Source of the DNA: Candidatus Dadabacteria bacterium
Lineage (GTDB): Bacteria; Desulfobacterota_D; UBA1144; Nemesobacterales; Nemesobacteraceae
Length of the DNA stretch: 64,000 bases
Assembly: GCA_022819805.1 (NCBI GenBank)
Contig: JAJEGO010000065.1
Span: 4,794 to 68,793, forward strand
Reading direction: 5' to 3'
Each line of letters begins with the position of its first letter. Positions within the stretch are counted from its first letter, which is position 1. A model generated the notes under the pieces. It saw only the letters and a program-made list of their open reading frames with translations, was not told the origin of the DNA and ran no database searches. Shown here piece by piece: positions 20,985-63,858 of this stretch. Both the position numbers and the translations under genes were made by a program.

Positions 20985-21305
20985 CTATTCGCCCGACACG
21001 CTGTTTTTCCTGAGAAAATCGAATGTGTAGAATCCGGTCTCGCACCAGATCTCGCCTATAAACCTTATAGCGTAATTACCGACGTACTCTATCCTCTCCG
21101 GCGCCATGCCGCTTTTTCCGAGAGGAATCCGTTTTTTAAACGGAAGTTTCCCGGTCCTGCTTTTTTTTCTGAGCCTTCTGCAGGTGGCACAAGGGCAGAT
21201 TTCCCTGAGTTCCTCGTAAAAGAATATGCTCTCCTCCCCGTCATCCCAGACGATCTGAAGAGCTTTTTCGGTAAATTCGTTTATTTCCCTAGGTTTTACG
21301 CTCAC
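20985..21305 (-). CDS. DUF971 domain protein (gamma-butyrobetaine hydroxylase-like N-terminal domain)
   Basis: 106 aa. A conserved Zn-ribbon CPCATC follows W..DG...F. Confidence 0.6.
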   Translation of the reverse strand: MSVKPREINEFTEKALQIVWDDGEESIFFYEELREICPCATCRRLRKKSRTGKLPFKKRIPLGKSGMAPERIEYVGNYAIRFIGEIWCETGFYTFDFLRKNSVSGE

Positions 21306-21449: not shown

Positions 21450-21459
21450 GGGGGGGGGG
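21450..21459 (+). repeat. G10 homopolymeric tract in the intergenic region upstream of the sirtuin-like gene
   Basis: Directly read: ctt-gggggggggg-cagttaac. Confidence 0.95.
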
Positions 21460-21560: not shown

Positions 21561-22325
21561 ATGAGCGAGCAGGAACAGGATGCGCTCTCGGCGACGGTCA
21601 AGTGGATACAGGAAGCCTCTCAGATAGTTTTTCTAACGGGAGTTGAACTCTCTCTTGAAGTTGGGCTGCCCGACGTCTCTGATCTGAGCTTCAATCCCGA
21701 CATAGGAAAATTCAAGAATCGCCCGGAGGTAAGAAGGGAGTACTGGGAAAAAATAAAGGACTTCTATCCCAGAATTTCCGAGGCGCGGCCCTCTCCGGCC
21801 CACGAAGCGATCTACGAGATGGAGTTTCTCTCCAACGTTGACTGCGTTTTGACCCAGGCGGCCGACGGTCTGCACAACAAAACCGGCAGCGAGAGGATAA
21901 TAGAGATATACTCGTCGATAAACTGGATTCACTGCCACGAATGCGGAAACGATTACCGCACCGACGGGATTCTGCTTTCCCTTGAGGACAGCAAAACCGG
22001 CATTCCGAAATGCAAGGAATGCCAGAGCGATCAGATGAAGCCTCCGCTGTCCTTCCCCGGACAGCCGCTTCCTCACTGGGAGATAAGGGAGTCCTGGATG
22101 AGGCTTCAGCACTGCGATCTTTTCATAGTTGTCGGGGCGAATCTGGAAATCGAGCCCGTGGCGTCCTTTCCCTTTCAGGTGATGAATAAGGGGAACAGGG
22201 TCGTTATTATCGGCGAGAGAAAAACCCCGGCCGACGATTACGTAAGCGCCGTCATATACGGAAGCCCGAGCCAGGTCATGCCTTACATAGTTGATAAACT
22301 CAAGGAAACCCATACGGTCTCCTGA
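21561..22325 (+). CDS. sirtuin (Sir2/CobB) fold protein with degenerate NAD-binding and catalytic motifs
   Basis: Aligns along its whole length with CobB. The Zn-ribbon CHEC...CKEC is retained. GAGIS is replaced by GVELS, QNID(N/D)LH by QAADGLH, and the catalytic HG by YS. Confidence 0.7.
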   Translation: MSEQEQDALSATVKWIQEASQIVFLTGVELSLEVGLPDVSDLSFNPDIGKFKNRPEVRREYWEKIKDFYPRISEARPSPAHEAIYEMEFLSNVDCVLTQAADGLHNKTGSERIIEIYSSINWIHCHECGNDYRTDGILLSLEDSKTGIPKCKECQSDQMKPPLSFPGQPLPHWEIRESWMRLQHCDLFIVVGANLEIEPVASFPFQVMNKGNRVVIIGERKTPADDYVSAVIYGSPSQVMPYIVDKLKETHTVS

Positions 22326-39280: not shown

Positions 39281-39354
39281 TGGGGCGTCGTCTAACGGCA
39301 GGACACCGGGTTTTGGTCCCGGTAGTGGGGGTTCGAGTCCTCCCGCCCCAGCCA
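39281..39354 (+). tRNA. tRNA-Gln (anticodon UUG), CCA encoded
   Basis: Clean cloverleaf folded by hand: 7-bp acceptor tggggcg/cgcccca, D-arm with GG, anticodon stem ccggg/cccgg with loop ttTTGgt, T-arm gggggTTCGAGTCcctcc, discriminator G and CCA. The ends match E. coli tRNA-Gln (UGGGG...CCCCAGCCA). Confidence 0.9.

Positions 39355-56968: not shown

Positions 56969-56976
<8 letters not shown>
55378..56976 (+). CDS. serA: D-3-phosphoglycerate dehydrogenase with ASB and ACT domains
   Basis: NAD motif GLGNIGKLVA, catalytic R/E/H residues, and a C-terminal ACT domain. Confidence 0.9.
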
Positions 56977-59532
<2,556 letters not shown>

Positions 59533-60914: not shown

Positions 60915-61250
60915 TTGGGCTACCGCGTACAGGAAAGATTATGTTTCGCGTCCAGAATTTTTATGGTTTTTTGCTCCCACCCGAAAACGATTCTTTACAG
61001 CCTTGGTATCTCACTTTTGCTTATTTTCCCTTTTTTTAGGCTTTTTCTCAACAGTGGTTTGTCATTCAAGGGCTCTTTGCCCCGTGGGAGACTGCCTCCT
61101 GCGTGTTGCCTGCGCTTTGCTTAAAAAGGCGGAATTATTTGTTTGATAAGAAATTTAAAATTCCAACTCAGGCACACGCTGCCTGATGCGAGAAATCGAA
61201 ATGCATAGAGAAGGTCTAAAAAAAACGAACACACATATATATAATTTCTT

Positions 61251-61274
61251 TCGGAATAATATACCTATTGGCTT
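61251..61274 (+). repeat. left terminal inverted repeat of the IS1595-like unit
   Basis: See mobile element. It overlaps the last codons of the nuclease ORF. Confidence 0.7.
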
Positions 61275-61927
61275 TTGAGTAATTTTAGCACATTTTCTTC
61301 CAGCTTCAAGCGGTCAGGGTTTTCGTAGAAATCCAAGACTGCCTTAGGGTTGTTTTTCCTTGTTTGGTCAAACGCTTTTCTGATATACACCCCAAAGCCA
61401 TATTTCTGCTTCTTGCCTTCCCATTCGTTCCGTTTTCTCTGGTATTCCTTCAATCCCTTGTCAAAGAAATCATGAAGGTTTCTTGCCTGTTGAACTGTAA
61501 CAACATCCATACCGAGAAAGAAAGTAACGTCACGCTTGGGAAATGACCCGAGAAGGTAAATGCCGTTCGGTCTAGGAAGCCCGCTGTTCCATACAGGCTT
61601 GCCTGTTCGGCCTTTGTTGAATTTGGTCTCGATACAGAACAGGTAATCATCCTCAAAGATGAGGAAATCGGGATAGTTCTGTTTCCCATTAGGGGTTACC
61701 ATGAACTCTTGCTTATGCCCGTAGATGTTCGCAATGGGTTCAGCTCGTTCTTTGAGCAGGATCGCTTCTTTTATTTCTCCCCACTTCTCAGGTCTATCCG
61801 CCCGTTTGGTATATCCCTCGGACTTGATAAGTTGTTCCATCCGCTCTTCAAACTCCGTCCCTTTTCCTGCAGCCACAAACTCCGCAGGAGCTTTCCTGAT
61901 CGCCTCAAAGACGTTAGCCAGCTTCAT
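61265..61927 (-). CDS. PD-(D/E)xK-fold nuclease, candidate type II restriction endonuclease
   Basis: 220 aa. YPDFLIFEDDYLFCIETKF gives PD-x12-ExK. The ATG lies inside the region that an ON-phase methyltransferase would read through (14-nt overlap). Confidence 0.5.
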   Translation of the reverse strand: MKLANVFEAIRKAPAEFVAAGKGTEFEERMEQLIKSEGYTKRADRPEKWGEIKEAILLKERAEPIANIYGHKQEFMVTPNGKQNYPDFLIFEDDYLFCIETKFNKGRTGKPVWNSGLPRPNGIYLLGSFPKRDVTFFLGMDVVTVQQARNLHDFFDKGLKEYQRKRNEWEGKKQKYGFGVYIRKAFDQTRKNNPKAVLDFYENPDRLKLEENVLKLLKSQ

Positions 61928-62218
61928 GAAGAATCATGTACTCCCTTACCACATCGTTTTTTCGAAAACCCGGGACAACCGTGCCGCAATCATAGGCTAT
62001 TCTTTCAAAATCCATCTCCCACAGACGCTCTACAATTTCATTGTTATCTGCATCAAACAACATCCATTGCTTGTTTTTCTCACAGGCTTTGGCCGTTCTT
62101 TCCCTGCGAGTGTAATCTTGATATCCCTGTGCCGGAACGGCGAAGACAAAGCGCTTGTTGAAAACGCTTAACGCTTCCTTTGTGTTGTTGTATTGATGAA
62201 GAAGAAAATCAGAGTGAT

Positions 62219-62776
62219 TTATAGGGGGGGGGCGGATAAACGCATATCATTCCCGGCAAAAGGCAGCCGGGTCCATATCTGGAACTCGGTGTTGACTGAG
62301 TAATTTTCCTGTTTCTCGGTATAAAAAGCTTCTCTCTCAAGAGGATAAGAACCTATCCAGGCAAACTCTCCGTTCAAAAGTCGGTGGATCCGATATTTGC
62401 GGAAAGTAACTGGCAGTATGAAAGCGATGGTGTCTGCGATTTCAGAGGCCTTGTTAAAGAAATCTATTGCCAGCTTAGAGCGTTTGCCGAAAGGTGGATT
62501 CCCTATAACAACGGTCTCCTGTCTGCGATAAAAAAACGGGCGGTATGTCCAAGTCAGGAAATTCCCTTTTATAATCCCTGGATGTTGCGGTGCTATATCA
62601 ATCCCAGTTCTTCTCTCAGGCGGCAGCAGATCATAAAACGACCCTTCCCCCGCTGACGGCTCTATGTAAAAGAGGGAATCCACAAGTATTTTGGCTTGCT
62701 GTGCTTCCTGTAGAAAGTAGGTAAAACAAGCCTCGGCAATATACGGTTTTGTATAAAATTGGTCATGGGGCAACAT
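62219..62776 (-). CDS. TaqI-like gamma-class N6-adenine DNA methyltransferase, truncated at a C9 tract (phase-OFF); the full-length frame would extend to 61914
   Basis: Motif X region QFYTKPYIAEACF, motif I IEPSAGEGSF and motif IV IGNPPFGKR. The ORF ends ...LSAPPL* right after CCCCCCCCC. Inserting one C opens a further 102 codons with no stop. Confidence 0.7.
   Translation of the reverse strand: MLPHDQFYTKPYIAEACFTYFLQEAQQAKILVDSLFYIEPSAGEGSFYDLLPPERRTGIDIAPQHPGIIKGNFLTWTYRPFFYRRQETVVIGNPPFGKRSKLAIDFFNKASEIADTIAFILPVTFRKYRIHRLLNGEFAWIGSYPLEREAFYTEKQENYSVNTEFQIWTRLPFAGNDMRLSAPPL
62224..62232 (+). repeat. G9 (C9 on coding strand) homopolymeric tract inside the methyltransferase gene
   Basis: Read directly: ata-ggggggggg-cgg. 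Confidence 0.95.
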
Positions 62777-63665
62777 CCAGCATTCCCCCTATGATGTTGT
62801 CGAAAATGCGTTCCGTACTTTCTTTACGATTTCCCCATTTGAAGGCAAAATGAGAGATATAATCCCCTGCGTACTTTTCGGAAAAGTGGTGGTGCTGTCC
62901 ATAACAGCCCCTCTTCAATAACGCCCAGAAAGATTCTATCGTGTTCGTGTGAACATATCCGTTAGCATATTGTCCCGCCGAGTGATTGACTGTCATGTGA
63001 GGCATGAGTTTAAACATGCTCTTGTAAGCAGGGAACTCATCCGTCATCAATACCGCATTCTCGGTATCTACGCAGGACTGGAGGAACTCTGCGAACTTCT
63101 TGGCGGTAAGGTCTTTTTTGTTGAACGGCACAACTCTTATCTGCCCGTTTCTCTCGGCGATACCAACAACGGGAAGCTTCTTAGTTCCTCTACCCCTCTT
63201 GTTAGGTTCTCCACCCCCGTTATTCTGCTTTCTGGGCTTGCCTCCGATATAAGCCTCGTCCATCTCTACTATACCCTTAAGAAATGCCCCCTGATCTGTC
63301 TTAGTTGCCTCCCTTATCTTGCGAAGCATACGAAAAGCCGTCTTTTGAGTAACGCCTATATCCCTTGCTAACTGGCAACTTGAAAGGGATTTTTTCGCTC
63401 CTGCTTCAAGAATGATCGCCATAATCCATTTGTACATTTCAATCTTGGTATTGTGAAAAAGAGTGCCGACCGTAACGCTAAAAGAATGGTTGCAATCGTG
63501 GCAGTTCCAGCGATACCCGCTCCTTGCTTTCTTGTCCTTTTTCTTTGCTACCTTGAGGCTTCCGCAATAAGGGCAGAACGCAAACTTGGCATATCTGACT
63601 GATTCAAGAAACTCTATGCATTTTTCATGAGTTCCGTATTTTTCTAGGATTGTTGTTAAGGTCAT
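62763..63665 (-). CDS. IS1595-family transposase (Zn-ribbon plus ISXO2-like DDE domain)
   Basis: N-terminal CPYCGS...CHDCNHSFS zinc ribbon, VEMDEAYIGGKP and downstream DDE-region motifs. It ends 10 nt before the methyltransferase start. Confidence 0.85.
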   Translation of the reverse strand: MTLTTILEKYGTHEKCIEFLESVRYAKFAFCPYCGSLKVAKKKDKKARSGYRWNCHDCNHSFSVTVGTLFHNTKIEMYKWIMAIILEAGAKKSLSSCQLARDIGVTQKTAFRMLRKIREATKTDQGAFLKGIVEMDEAYIGGKPRKQNNGGGEPNKRGRGTKKLPVVGIAERNGQIRVVPFNKKDLTAKKFAEFLQSCVDTENAVLMTDEFPAYKSMFKLMPHMTVNHSAGQYANGYVHTNTIESFWALLKRGCYGQHHHFSEKYAGDYISHFAFKWGNRKESTERIFDNIIGGMLDVAP

Positions 63666-63728
63666 TTACTCTCTCTCCTTTTCTCTTAAGCAATGGTAAA
63701 ATTATACAGGAAAGAGAATCAAATGTCA

Positions 63729-63752
63729 AGCCAATAGGTATATAATTCCGAT
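63729..63752 (+). repeat. right terminal inverted repeat of the IS1595-like unit
   Basis: See mobile element. Confidence 0.7.
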
Positions 63753-63858
63753 TTCTTTTGCTTGATTAAAGGGTAGGAAAACCTCTGGCGCGGTGTTTTT
63801 TAATATAGTTATCGCCAATATAACATGAGGCGCCCCGATTTTCACCGCTACCGCCGTA

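What the first reader, a model, noticed from the sequence alone, without database searches (positions are those of the whole stretch)
62224..62232. Homopolymeric G9/C9 tract switches the methyltransferase between truncated and full-length frames (candidate phase variation)
The methyltransferase ORF runs through CCCCCCCCC and stops one codon later, at 185 aa. That is too short for a gamma-class methyltransferase: motifs X, I and IV are present, but everything after motif IV is missing. With one extra C, the reading frame stays open for 102 more codons (...PINHSDFLLHQYNNTKEALSVFNKRF...KQWMLFDADNNEIVERLWEMDFERIAYDCGTVVPGFRKNDVVREYMILHEAG*) and ends at 61914. That is a 14-nt overlap with the ATG of the nuclease gene. 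An open frame of that length is unlikely by chance at this GC content; I estimate below 1 %. Removing one C gives an immediate stop. This is the classic architecture of slipped-strand phase-variable restriction-modification and phasevarion genes, here combined with a transposon location. The translational coupling would also lower nuclease expression when the methyltransferase is OFF.
Basis: seen in the sequence. Interest (0 to 1): 0.8.

Follow-up and report, generated by a model that had tools for sequence, protein, structure and literature searches.

The report
Poly-C frameshift switch in transposon-borne methyltransferase
A run of nine C's knocks a DNA-methyltransferase gene out of frame inside a 2.5-kb mobile element that carries a restriction-modification pair; relatives keep the same run in both in-frame and out-of-frame lengths, which is the comparative signature of a reversible on/off switch rather than a dead gene.

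Summary
G9 lies at 62224-62232 (C9 in the minus-strand gene). The ORF stops at 185 aa, and one extra C gives a 287-aa protein ending at 61914, 14 nt into the next gene.

The repaired protein matches 285-290-aa homologues end to end and a PADLOC Type II methyltransferase profile. Its model resembles gamma-class N6-adenine DNA methyltransferases. The downstream gene is a PD-(D/E)XK Type II endonuclease.

Transposase, methyltransferase and nuclease form a 2,499-bp IS1595-family element (61252-63750) with 22-bp inverted repeats and an 8-bp target duplication.

This is not an old pseudogene. Three diverged copies all carry C9, yet the out-of-frame part has dN/dS of 0.03-0.05. Deeper lineages keep a poly-C run at the same Pro-Pro-Pro site: C10 in frame in two, C9 out of frame in five. 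All four orphan methyltransferases have interrupted runs. CCC is only about 19% of proline codons elsewhere in these genes.

The best reading is a slipped-strand contingency switch, currently OFF, that probably co-silences the nuclease. Switching in this population is not shown: every assembly of this allele has C9. Recoding at the run remains a rival.

The parts
61252..63750 (-). IS1595-family element with cargo (2,499 bp): transposase, methyltransferase, restriction nuclease
   Evidence: The boundaries come from the 3-way alignment with L001 and L002, where similarity starts and stops exactly here. A self-BLAST finds the terminal inverted repeats. The same element is found at other insertion sites in L001, L035, L036 and L044.
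63729..63750 (-). Left inverted repeat CGGAATTATATACCTATTGGCT
61252..61273 (+). Right inverted repeat (CGGAATAATATACCTATTGGCT read inward). The nuclease stop codon TAG (61267-61265) lies inside it.
63751..63758 (.). 8-bp target-site duplication AAAGAAAT, left copy
   Evidence: Read. Copies L001, L036 and L044 have their own 8-bp duplications.
61244..61251 (.). 8-bp target-site duplication AAAGAAAT, right copy
63701..63729 (-). Consensus sigma-70-type promoter TTGACA-17-TATAAT (12 of 12), starting at the inner end of the left repeat
   Evidence: This is a consensus match only.
62763..63665 (-). IS1595-family transposase, 300 aa, with an N-terminal zinc ribbon. Its last 14 nt overlap the methyltransferase start.
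   Evidence: Pfam DDE_Tnp_IS1595 E = 2.6e-38 and NCBIfam transpos_IS1595 E = 1.7e-53
62219..62776 (-). Methyltransferase, N-terminal 185-aa reading frame (Rossmann core, EPSAGEGSF motif I, NPPF motif IV), ending APPL*
62224..62232 (-). C9 homopolymer (G9 on +) across the Ala-Pro-Pro(-Pro) codons. C10 would be in frame.
61914..62225 (-). Methyltransferase C-terminal domain (about 102 codons) in the -1 frame relative to the N-terminal part. It is intact and under purifying selection.
61265..61927 (-). Type II restriction endonuclease candidate, 220 aa, PD-(D/E)XK (D87, E100, K102 invariant). Its ATG lies 14 nt inside the methyltransferase 3' end.

Best explanation
The C9 run is a slipped-strand (DNA-level) contingency switch in the methyltransferase gene of a two-gene Type II restriction-modification operon. 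That operon is cargo of an active IS1595-family element.

**Proposed mechanism**
- Replication slippage changes the run length.
- C10 (or C7, C13) yields the full 287-aa enzyme: a gamma-class N6-adenine catalytic core plus a C-terminal domain.
- C9, C8 or C11 yields a core-only fragment of 185-189 aa that lacks the C-terminal domain and is presumed inactive.
- The window shows the OFF state.
- The nuclease ATG lies inside the methyltransferase 3' end and has no well-spaced Shine-Dalgarno sequence. Premature termination 292 nt upstream should therefore also lower nuclease synthesis, through loss of translational coupling and probably Rho polarity. M-OFF cells would then not be killed.

**Shown**
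- The tract, the two frames and the homology of both halves.
- The structure of the mobile element.
- Purifying selection on the out-of-frame half.
- Conservation of the homopolymer across deep lineages, with both in-frame and out-of-frame lengths.

**Inferred**
- That the length actually switches at high rate in this organism.
- That the truncated product is inactive.
- That the nuclease is co-silenced.
For: 2. **Not an old pseudogene.** The window, L001 and L002 all have C9 and are near synonymous saturation (dS 0.74-2.7). Even so, the part downstream of the run has dN/dS 0.028-0.051, like the N-terminal part (0.024), the transposase (0.02-0.03) and the nuclease (0.03-0.04). The wrong frames give values above 1.6.
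3. **Both states exist in otherwise intact genes.** C10 is in frame in L044, a SPAdes contig at 10.7x with the same IS architecture, and in L035. C9 is out of frame in the window, L001, L002 and L042, the last on a 173-kb ptg contig whose name suggests a hifiasm/HiFi assembly (my inference). L043 also has C9 but needs the opposite correction.
4. **The homopolymer itself is maintained.** It sits on the deepest branches of the subfamily tree, at 50-70% amino-acid identity, while CCC is only 12-27% of proline codons elsewhere in these genes.
5. **Link to the nuclease.** Seven of 8 methyltransferase-plus-nuclease pairs carry C9 or C10. All 4 orphan methyltransferases (L004, L005, L007, L034) have interrupted runs. 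L034 encodes the same protein as IS-borne L035 but reads CCCCCCTCCC.
6. **Conserved gene overlap.** The methyltransferase stop overlaps the nuclease start in every lineage, by 8, 14 or 23 nt.
7. **Precedent.** In H. pylori, a C repeat encoding PPPP turns the Type IIG enzyme JHP1272 on and off, and repeats longer than 8 bp are considered switch-prone (PMC3936762).
Against: - **No heterogeneity for this allele.** All 5 contigs with this exact allele, plus the Logan assembly, read C9. No C8, C10 or C11 variant of the window, L001 or L002 alleles appeared in the protein searches or cluster lists drawn from a 15-billion-protein collection.
- **The three closest lineages are all OFF.** That is also what a fixed, recoded frameshift would look like.
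- **Some tract lengths are not trustworthy.** L002 (2.95x), L035 (4x), L036 (6x) and L043 have contig names that suggest long-read assemblies. L036 differs from L035 only by 5 indels and no mismatches, so it is noise.
- **Ascertainment bias.** L042 and L043 were picked because they were truncated.
- **The lethality problem is not solved.** An OFF methyltransferase with an intact separate nuclease would normally be lethal. Co-silencing is inferred, not shown.
- **Unknown slippage rate.** The mismatch-repair status of the host, probably Candidatus Dadabacteria, is unknown.
Confidence: 0.6

Rival explanations
1. Programmed recoding. C9 is the functional wild-type allele, and full-length methyltransferase is made from it. 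This could happen by transcriptional slippage (RNA polymerase adds one C on the run) or by -1 ribosomal frameshifting on C_CCC_CCC. Either would set a fixed low ratio of full-length to truncated protein, and through coupling a low nuclease level.
For: - C9 out of frame is shared by three lineages at near-saturated dS, with strong purifying selection downstream, and by the deeper L042.
- There is no in-frame start codon between the run and Met-237, so the conserved residues 186-236 can only be translated as a continuation of the N-terminal part.
- The run fits the formal X_XXY_YYZ pattern in frame, and a 0-frame stop follows one codon later.
- IS elements commonly use such recoding, and proline CCC codons are known shift-prone sites (review PMC5009743).
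Against: - In-frame C10 alleles with the same conserved homopolymer exist in L044 (short-read assembly) and L035. Recoding gives no reason to keep the run there.
- L043 needs a shift in the opposite direction, so no single ribosomal mechanism fits all cases.
- No conserved stimulatory RNA structure was found. There is only a 6-bp AU-rich hairpin 3 nt after the run, without covariation, and it is broken in L042. No conserved upstream hairpin was seen either.
- From my own knowledge, bacterial transcriptional slippage is documented for A/T runs, not C runs.
Confidence: 0.13
2. Non-adaptive mutational hotspot. The run is only a fragile site. The C9 alleles are independent, recent, effectively irreversible inactivations of a costly restriction-modification cargo on its way to decay, with no selected switching.
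For: - Four of the 8 truncated homologues among the best 120 N-terminal hits break exactly at the poly-C run.
- This allele is uniformly C9 in all assemblies.
- The family shows frequent loss of the nuclease, leaving orphans and remnants.
Against: - A purely deleterious run is one synonymous change away from being removed, and it was removed in the orphan lineages. Yet it persists on deep branches despite low CCC usage.
- None of the five out-of-frame lineages has any second lesion in the C-terminal part or in the nuclease.
- dN/dS is 0.03-0.05.
Confidence: 0.2
3. Sequencing or assembly error. The true run is C10 and the gene is simply intact.
For: Homopolymer length errors are common. L036 shows five such errors in 2.5 kb, and several relatives have contig names that suggest low-coverage long-read assemblies.
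Against: - The window scaffold and four other contigs give the identical 185-aa product, and an independent Logan assembly of SRR16351693 also reads C9.
- L001, another Logan contig found in two samples, also has C9.
- The large genes inspected at the right-hand end of the window are uninterrupted.
Confidence: 0.05

Closest known systems
Homopolymer-switched restriction-modification genes of Helicobacter pylori, e.g. Type IIG JHP1272/HP1353-1354 (Krebes et al. 2014, PMC3936762)
   Different: - Those enzymes are fused nuclease-methyltransferase polypeptides, so OFF removes both activities automatically. Here the nuclease is a separate gene, and co-silencing has to come from polarity or coupling.
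- This system is cargo of an insertion sequence, in an uncultivated and probably sponge-associated bacterium.
- Switching here is not demonstrated.
Phasevarions (phase-variable Type III mod and Type I hsd genes of Haemophilus, Neisseria, Moraxella and others)
   Same: A simple-sequence repeat inside a methyltransferase ORF gives stochastic ON/OFF expression. In those systems restriction depends on the methyltransferase, so OFF is safe (my own knowledge).
   Different: - Those are Type III or Type I systems with tetra- or pentanucleotide or homopolymer repeats.
- Their regulatory (epigenetic) role has been shown experimentally.
- Here the system is a small Type II pair, and no regulon is known.
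IS1595-family insertion sequences with passenger genes (Siguier, Gagnevin & Chandler 2009, cited in PMC2853133) and transposon-like restriction-modification units (Furuta et al. 2010, PMC2853133)
   Same: A DDE transposase with an N-terminal zinc ribbon, terminal inverted repeats and an 8-bp target duplication. Restriction-modification genes bounded by inverted repeats and 8-bp duplications have been described.
   Different: I found no description of an IS1595 element carrying a complete Type II pair translationally chained to the transposase (14-nt overlaps), or of a conserved homopolymer switch in such cargo. That is absence in the searched library only.
Ancient frameshifts in homopolymers rescued by polymerase slippage (poly-A tracts of Buchnera and Blochmannia; IS-element and dnaX slippage sites)
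   Same: A frameshift at a homopolymer is conserved between lineages while the downstream frame stays under purifying selection. The concept is from my own knowledge and from PMC5009743 and PMC3017870, which were listed.
   Different: Those are A/T runs, and the out-of-frame length is the conserved state. Here the run is poly-C, and in-frame lengths occur in sister lineages.

Membership tests
Simple-sequence contingency (phase-variable) locus | Repeat tract of switch-prone length (homopolymer of about 8 or more) inside the ORF | tested here: met
   C9 at 62224-62232. The threshold of more than 8 bp is quoted in PMC3936762.
Simple-sequence contingency (phase-variable) locus | A change of tract length by one unit toggles between full-length and truncated product | tested here: met
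   C9 gives 185 aa, C10 gives 287 aa, and C8 gives 188 aa.
Simple-sequence contingency (phase-variable) locus | Tract-length polymorphism, both ON and OFF, among otherwise intact alleles of related strains | tested here: met
   C10 in L044 and L035; C9 in the window, L001, L002, L042 and L043. Downstream dN/dS is 0.03-0.05.
Simple-sequence contingency (phase-variable) locus | Length heterogeneity within one population or allele | tested here: not met
   Five contigs plus a Logan assembly of this allele all read C9. No variant of the allele appeared in the protein searches or cluster lists. Consensus assemblies cannot show minority variants, so this is weak evidence.
Simple-sequence contingency (phase-variable) locus | Measured reversible switching at high frequency | not testable with these tools
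   Needs reads, amplicons or culture.
Type II restriction-modification system | SAM-dependent DNA methyltransferase with motif I (FxGxG-like) and catalytic (D/N)PP(Y/F) | tested here: met
Type II restriction-modification system | Separate endonuclease gene with a nuclease catalytic motif, adjacent to the methyltransferase and co-inherited with it | tested here: met
Type II restriction-modification system | Demonstrated cleavage and methylation of a defined sequence | not testable with these tools
   The specificity is unknown.
Gamma-class N6-adenine methyltransferase | Motif order with motif I before motif IV, and the target-recognition region at the C-terminus | tested here: met
   Motif I lies at residues 39-47 and NPPF at 93-96. 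The C-terminal domain covers about residues 186-287. The longest structural alignments are to gamma-class enzymes. That the C-terminal domain is the recognition domain is inferred.
IS1595 family insertion sequence | DDE transposase of the IS1595 type with an N-terminal zinc ribbon | tested here: met
   Pfam PF12762 E = 2.6e-38 and PF12760, the latter below its cut-off. NCBIfam NF033547 scores 181.7 bits against a cut-off of 75.
IS1595 family insertion sequence | Terminal inverted repeats and an 8-bp target-site duplication | tested here: met
   The 22-bp repeats match at 21 of 22 positions. AAAGAAAT is duplicated. Other copies have their own 8-bp duplications.
Programmed -1 ribosomal frameshift site | In-frame slippery heptamer X_XXY_YYZ | tested here: met
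   (GC)C_CCC_CCC fits in frame. Efficiency on an all-C heptamer is not established.
Programmed -1 ribosomal frameshift site | Conserved stimulatory element (downstream structure or upstream Shine-Dalgarno-like sequence) | tested here: not met
   Only a weak 6-bp AU-rich hairpin was found, with no covariation, and it is broken in L042.
Programmed -1 ribosomal frameshift site | The out-of-frame arrangement is conserved in all orthologues that carry the site | tested here: not met
   L044 and L035 are in frame with C10. L043 needs the opposite shift.

The most novel reading that the evidence does not exclude
The C9 allele is not OFF but recoded. RNA polymerase or the ribosome slips on the all-C run at a set frequency, so one gene makes a truncated core and a small amount of full-length methyltransferase. 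Through the 14-nt overlap, the same slip meters nuclease synthesis. That would be a C-run recoding device controlling the methylase-to-nuclease ratio of a mobile restriction-modification unit.
Probability: 0.1. Interest if true: 0.8.

Novelty: new variant of a known kind. Interest (0 to 1): 0.5.

Why it matters
- **Where phase variation has been studied.** Homopolymer switching of restriction-modification genes is mostly known from host-adapted pathogens, and from Type I, III and IIG systems where switching off the methylase is automatically safe.
- **What differs here.** The switch sits in the methylase of a classical two-gene Type II system with a separate nuclease. The run has been kept by selection across very deep divergence. 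The whole unit is the cargo of an active insertion sequence in uncultivated, apparently sponge-associated bacteria.
- **If it switches.** It would show how a selfish restriction-modification module can travel and persist in a silent but re-armable form. It would also give a testable case of nuclease co-silencing by polarity or coupling.
- **For annotators.** These 185-aa "fragments" should not be called pseudogenes.

Tried and rejected
- **Pfam and NCBIfam scans.** Neither found anything for the methyltransferase or the nuclease. PADLOC and structure comparison were needed instead.
- **DNA pattern scans.** The sequence just after the run was searched in metagenome contigs and genome contigs.
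- **Viral contigs.** Only relatives at 35-38% identity with non-homopolymer PP codons were found, and there was no match to the tract pattern.
- **Plasmid and phage collections.** Only distant homologues below 40% identity were found.
- **L036 as evidence of C9/C10 polymorphism within one sample.** Rejected. It differs from L035 by 5 indels and 0 substitutions, so it is consensus noise.
- **Old pseudogene.** Rejected on dN/dS.
- **Split methyltransferase with an independently translated C-terminal part.** Rejected. There is no in-frame ATG, GTG or TTG between the run and Met-237, although residues 186-236 contain many invariant positions.
- **Conserved frameshift-stimulating RNA structure.** Not found.
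- **A second protective copy of the methyltransferase, or another copy of the element, in the window.** None found.
- **Literature on IS1595 with restriction-modification cargo.** Nothing specific turned up.

Full report
**1. Observation**

On the + strand, 62216-62240 reads GATTTATAGGGGGGGGGCGGATAAA, so G9 occupies 62224-62232. The gene is on the minus strand.
- The ORF 62776..62219 gives 185 aa ending ...MRLSAPPL* (GCC CCC CCC CTA TAA).
- Adding one C gives a 287-aa protein, ...SAPPPINHSDFLLHQYNNT...REYMILHEAG*. Its stop at 61916-61914 lies 14 nt inside the next ORF, whose ATG is at 61927.
- Deleting one C gives ...APPYKSL*.

Two details are off. The stop after a one-C deletion comes five codons later, not immediately. 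The truncated product does not lack "everything after motif IV" (section 2).

A 9-mer G/C run is not improbable in 64 kb. My arithmetic from the composition gives about 0.56 expected, and two are seen, the other being G10 at 21450-21459. The significance comes from what follows.

**2. What the genes are**

*Methyltransferase*
- The repaired 287-aa protein finds 1,257 homologues. The best are 285-290 aa, 82-83% identical over 100% of the query (E down to 3e-166).
- Pfam and NCBIfam have no model for it. PADLOC's Type II methyltransferase profile PDLC03274 is matched from residue 5 to 285 (E = 2e-46).
- In a 52-sequence alignment, 50 columns are invariant. These include E39/G43/G45/F47 (motif I), N93-P94-P95-F96 (motif IV) and many residues after position 185, such as H188, Q195-Y-N-N-T199, Q217-G218, E233, W238 and P269-G-F271.
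- The AlphaFold model is confident (pLDDT 93, pTM 0.86). The seven-stranded Rossmann core is complete by about residue 170, and a separate alpha/beta domain occupies about residues 186-287.

*Nuclease*
- The 220-aa downstream protein belongs to a small family of 63 hits. One is named a type II restriction endonuclease by NCBI.
- P86-D87, E100 and K102 are invariant.
- The two genes are neighbours in unrelated genomes.

Together they form a Type II restriction-modification pair.

**3. The mobile element**

- Upstream lies a 300-aa IS1595-family transposase (Pfam E = 2.6e-38; NCBIfam 181.7 bits).
- Alignment with two related contigs fixes the element ends at 63750 and 61252, a length of 2,499 bp.
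- The ends are 22-bp inverted repeats matching at 21 of 22 positions. They are flanked by a perfect 8-bp duplication, AAAGAAAT.
- Related copies lie at other sites with their own 8-bp duplications: TTTAAGTT in L001, ATAATAAT in L036 and AAACTTTT in L044. The element is therefore active.
- A 12-of-12 TTGACA-17-TATAAT match starts at the inner end of the left repeat.
- The transposase overlaps the methyltransferase by 14 nt, and the methyltransferase overlaps the nuclease by 14 nt.
- The nuclease stop codon lies in the right repeat.
- There is no second copy of the element or of the methyltransferase in the window.
- The host is probably Candidatus Dadabacteria. The neighbouring HisZ falls in a 90% cluster with MAG proteins so named. 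The source scaffold is ENA ERZ23491513 KELL22-1_SAMN22237341 scaffold_325.

**4. Is it a dead gene?**

Two other contigs, L001 and L002, carry methyltransferase N-terminal parts 94% and 91% identical that also stop at APPL*. Their DNA has exactly G-C9-TATAAATCA.

These three copies are very old relative to each other. Nei-Gojobori results are below.

| Region | dS | dN/dS |
|---|---|---|
| Transposase | 0.96-2.7 | 0.02-0.03 |
| Methyltransferase, N-terminal part | 1.4-2.2 | 0.024 |
| Methyltransferase, downstream of the run, shifted frame | 0.74-1.13 | 0.028-0.051 |
| Nuclease | not tabulated | 0.03-0.04 |
| Same downstream DNA, the two wrong frames | not tabulated | above 1.6 |

The out-of-frame half has therefore been translated and selected throughout. 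It is not an inherited pseudogene.

It is not independently initiated either. There is no ATG, GTG or TTG in frame between the run and Met-237, yet residues 186-236 are among the most conserved.

**5. The run in other lineages**

| Locus | Tract | Frame | Context |
|---|---|---|---|
| P0001-P0004 loci (74-83% identical) | TCACCGCCT, CCTCCGCCT or CCCCCGCCC | in frame | interrupted proline codons |
| L035 (4x) | C10 | in frame | IS-borne, nuclease present |
| L034 (64x) | CCCCCCTCCC | in frame | phage-like contig; only a right-repeat remnant; nuclease cut to 39 aa |
| L036 (6x) | C9 | uninformative | differs from L035 only by 5 indels, so it is consensus noise |
| L044 (65% identical; SPAdes contig, 10.7x) | ACC-C10-AATA | in frame | same IS architecture and its own target duplication |
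| L042 (67% identical; 173-kb ptg contig, name suggests hifiasm) | G-C9-TATAAAA | same APPL* stop | C-terminal frame and nuclease intact; not in an IS |
| L043 (52% identical) | GT-C9-TGTG | needs C8 or C11 | nuclease intact |

L034 and L035 encode the same 286-aa protein, in the 90% cluster of P0009.

- On a neighbour-joining tree, the poly-C carriers occupy the deepest branches and the interrupted alleles are nested among them.
- Outside the run, CCC is only 12-27% (mean 19%) of proline codons in these genes. An all-C run at the same Pro-Pro-Pro site in five deep lineages is therefore not codon-usage chance.
- Seven of 8 methyltransferase-plus-nuclease pairs have C9 or C10. All four orphan methyltransferases have interrupted runs. 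This comes from the gene tables.
- That association carries two caveats. L042 and L043 were chosen because they were truncated, and the lineages are not independent.

**6. Mechanism**

These data are the comparative signature of a simple-sequence contingency locus:
- a homopolymer of switch-prone length, kept by selection;
- both in-frame and out-of-frame lengths in alleles that are otherwise intact and under purifying selection;
- locking by a synonymous interruption where constitutive methylation is wanted, as in orphan and phage-borne copies.

A direct precedent is the C repeat encoding PPPP that turns the H. pylori Type IIG enzyme JHP1272 on and off (PMC3936762).

The special problem here is the separate nuclease gene. 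In every lineage its ATG lies inside the methyltransferase 3' end, with overlaps of 8, 14 or 23 nt. The only Shine-Dalgarno-like sequence, AGGGAG, sits 13 nt upstream and is fixed by the Arg-Glu codons.

I therefore infer that termination at 62219, 292 nt upstream, removes translational coupling and exposes the mRNA to Rho. The nuclease would then fall together with the methylase. This step is not shown.

**7. Rivals**

- **Recoding** (transcriptional slippage or -1 frameshifting on C_CCC_CCC). It would explain why the three closest lineages and L042 are all C9. It does not explain the conserved run in the in-frame C10 alleles or the opposite offset in L043. No conserved stimulatory structure exists: only a 6-bp AU-rich hairpin without covariation.
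- **Non-adaptive hotspot with recent independent inactivations.** This fits the uniform C9 in this population. It does not fit the long-term retention of the run or the absence of any second lesion.
- **Assembly error.** This is unlikely, given five concordant contigs and an independent Logan assembly.

My weights are 0.60 for the switch, 0.20 for the hotspot, 0.13 for recoding and 0.05 for an artefact.

**8. Limits**

- No reads were available, so heterogeneity within the population is untested.
- No C8, C10 or C11 variant of this allele appeared in the protein searches or cluster lists.
- Several relatives come from contigs whose names suggest low-coverage long-read assemblies.
- Enzyme specificity, the inactivity of the 185-aa product and nuclease co-silencing are all inferred.

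**9. Verdict**

The finding is a new variant of a known kind: a selected poly-C frameshift switch in the methylase of an insertion-sequence-borne, two-gene Type II restriction-modification unit, seen here in the OFF length.

Noticed in passing
window 21450-21459 (+): G10 is the only other G/C run longer than 6 in the window. It lies in the divergent intergenic region between a 106-aa gene on the minus strand (20985-21305) and a Sir2-like 254-aa gene (21561-22325). It could be a promoter-spacer homopolymer.
   Followed up: no
window 63701-63729 (-): A perfect TTGACA-17-TATAAT promoter consensus starts at the inner end of the left inverted repeat. The transposase, methyltransferase and nuclease are chained by two 14-nt overlaps, so the cargo looks co-transcribed with the transposase.
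   Followed up: partly
L034:6001-6986 versus L035:3955-6454: In one metagenome the same 286-aa methyltransferase occurs twice. One copy is in an intact IS with the nuclease and C10. The other is in a phage-like contig (portal and capsid genes, 64x) with only a right-repeat remnant, the nuclease cut to 39 aa and the run interrupted as CCCCCCTCCC. The cargo appears to have been captured by a phage as a locked-ON orphan methylase.
   Followed up: partly
L043:5546-5554: A relative at 52% identity, with an intact nuclease and not in an IS, has C9 at the same Pro-Pro-Pro site. It is out of frame in the other direction and needs C8 or C11.
   Followed up: partly
window 62205-62219 (-): A small inverted repeat AAATCA-CTC-TGATTT begins 3 nt after the run and is conserved in 4 of 5 poly-C lineages. 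It overlaps the conserved I-N-H-S-D-F codons and shows no covariation.
   Followed up: partly
family level: The methyltransferase family is large (at least 1,257 hits) and has no Pfam or NCBIfam model. The cognate nuclease family has only 63 hits, so most members are orphan methylases. Distant members occur in many phages, including Campylobacter and Helicobacter phages.
   Followed up: no
window 56969-58228 and whole window: HisZ falls in a 90% cluster with MAG proteins named Candidatus Dadabacteria. Several family hits are named Candidatus Poribacteria. Both suggest a sponge-associated source. The only Rfam hit in the window is one tRNA at 39281-39351.
   Followed up: partly
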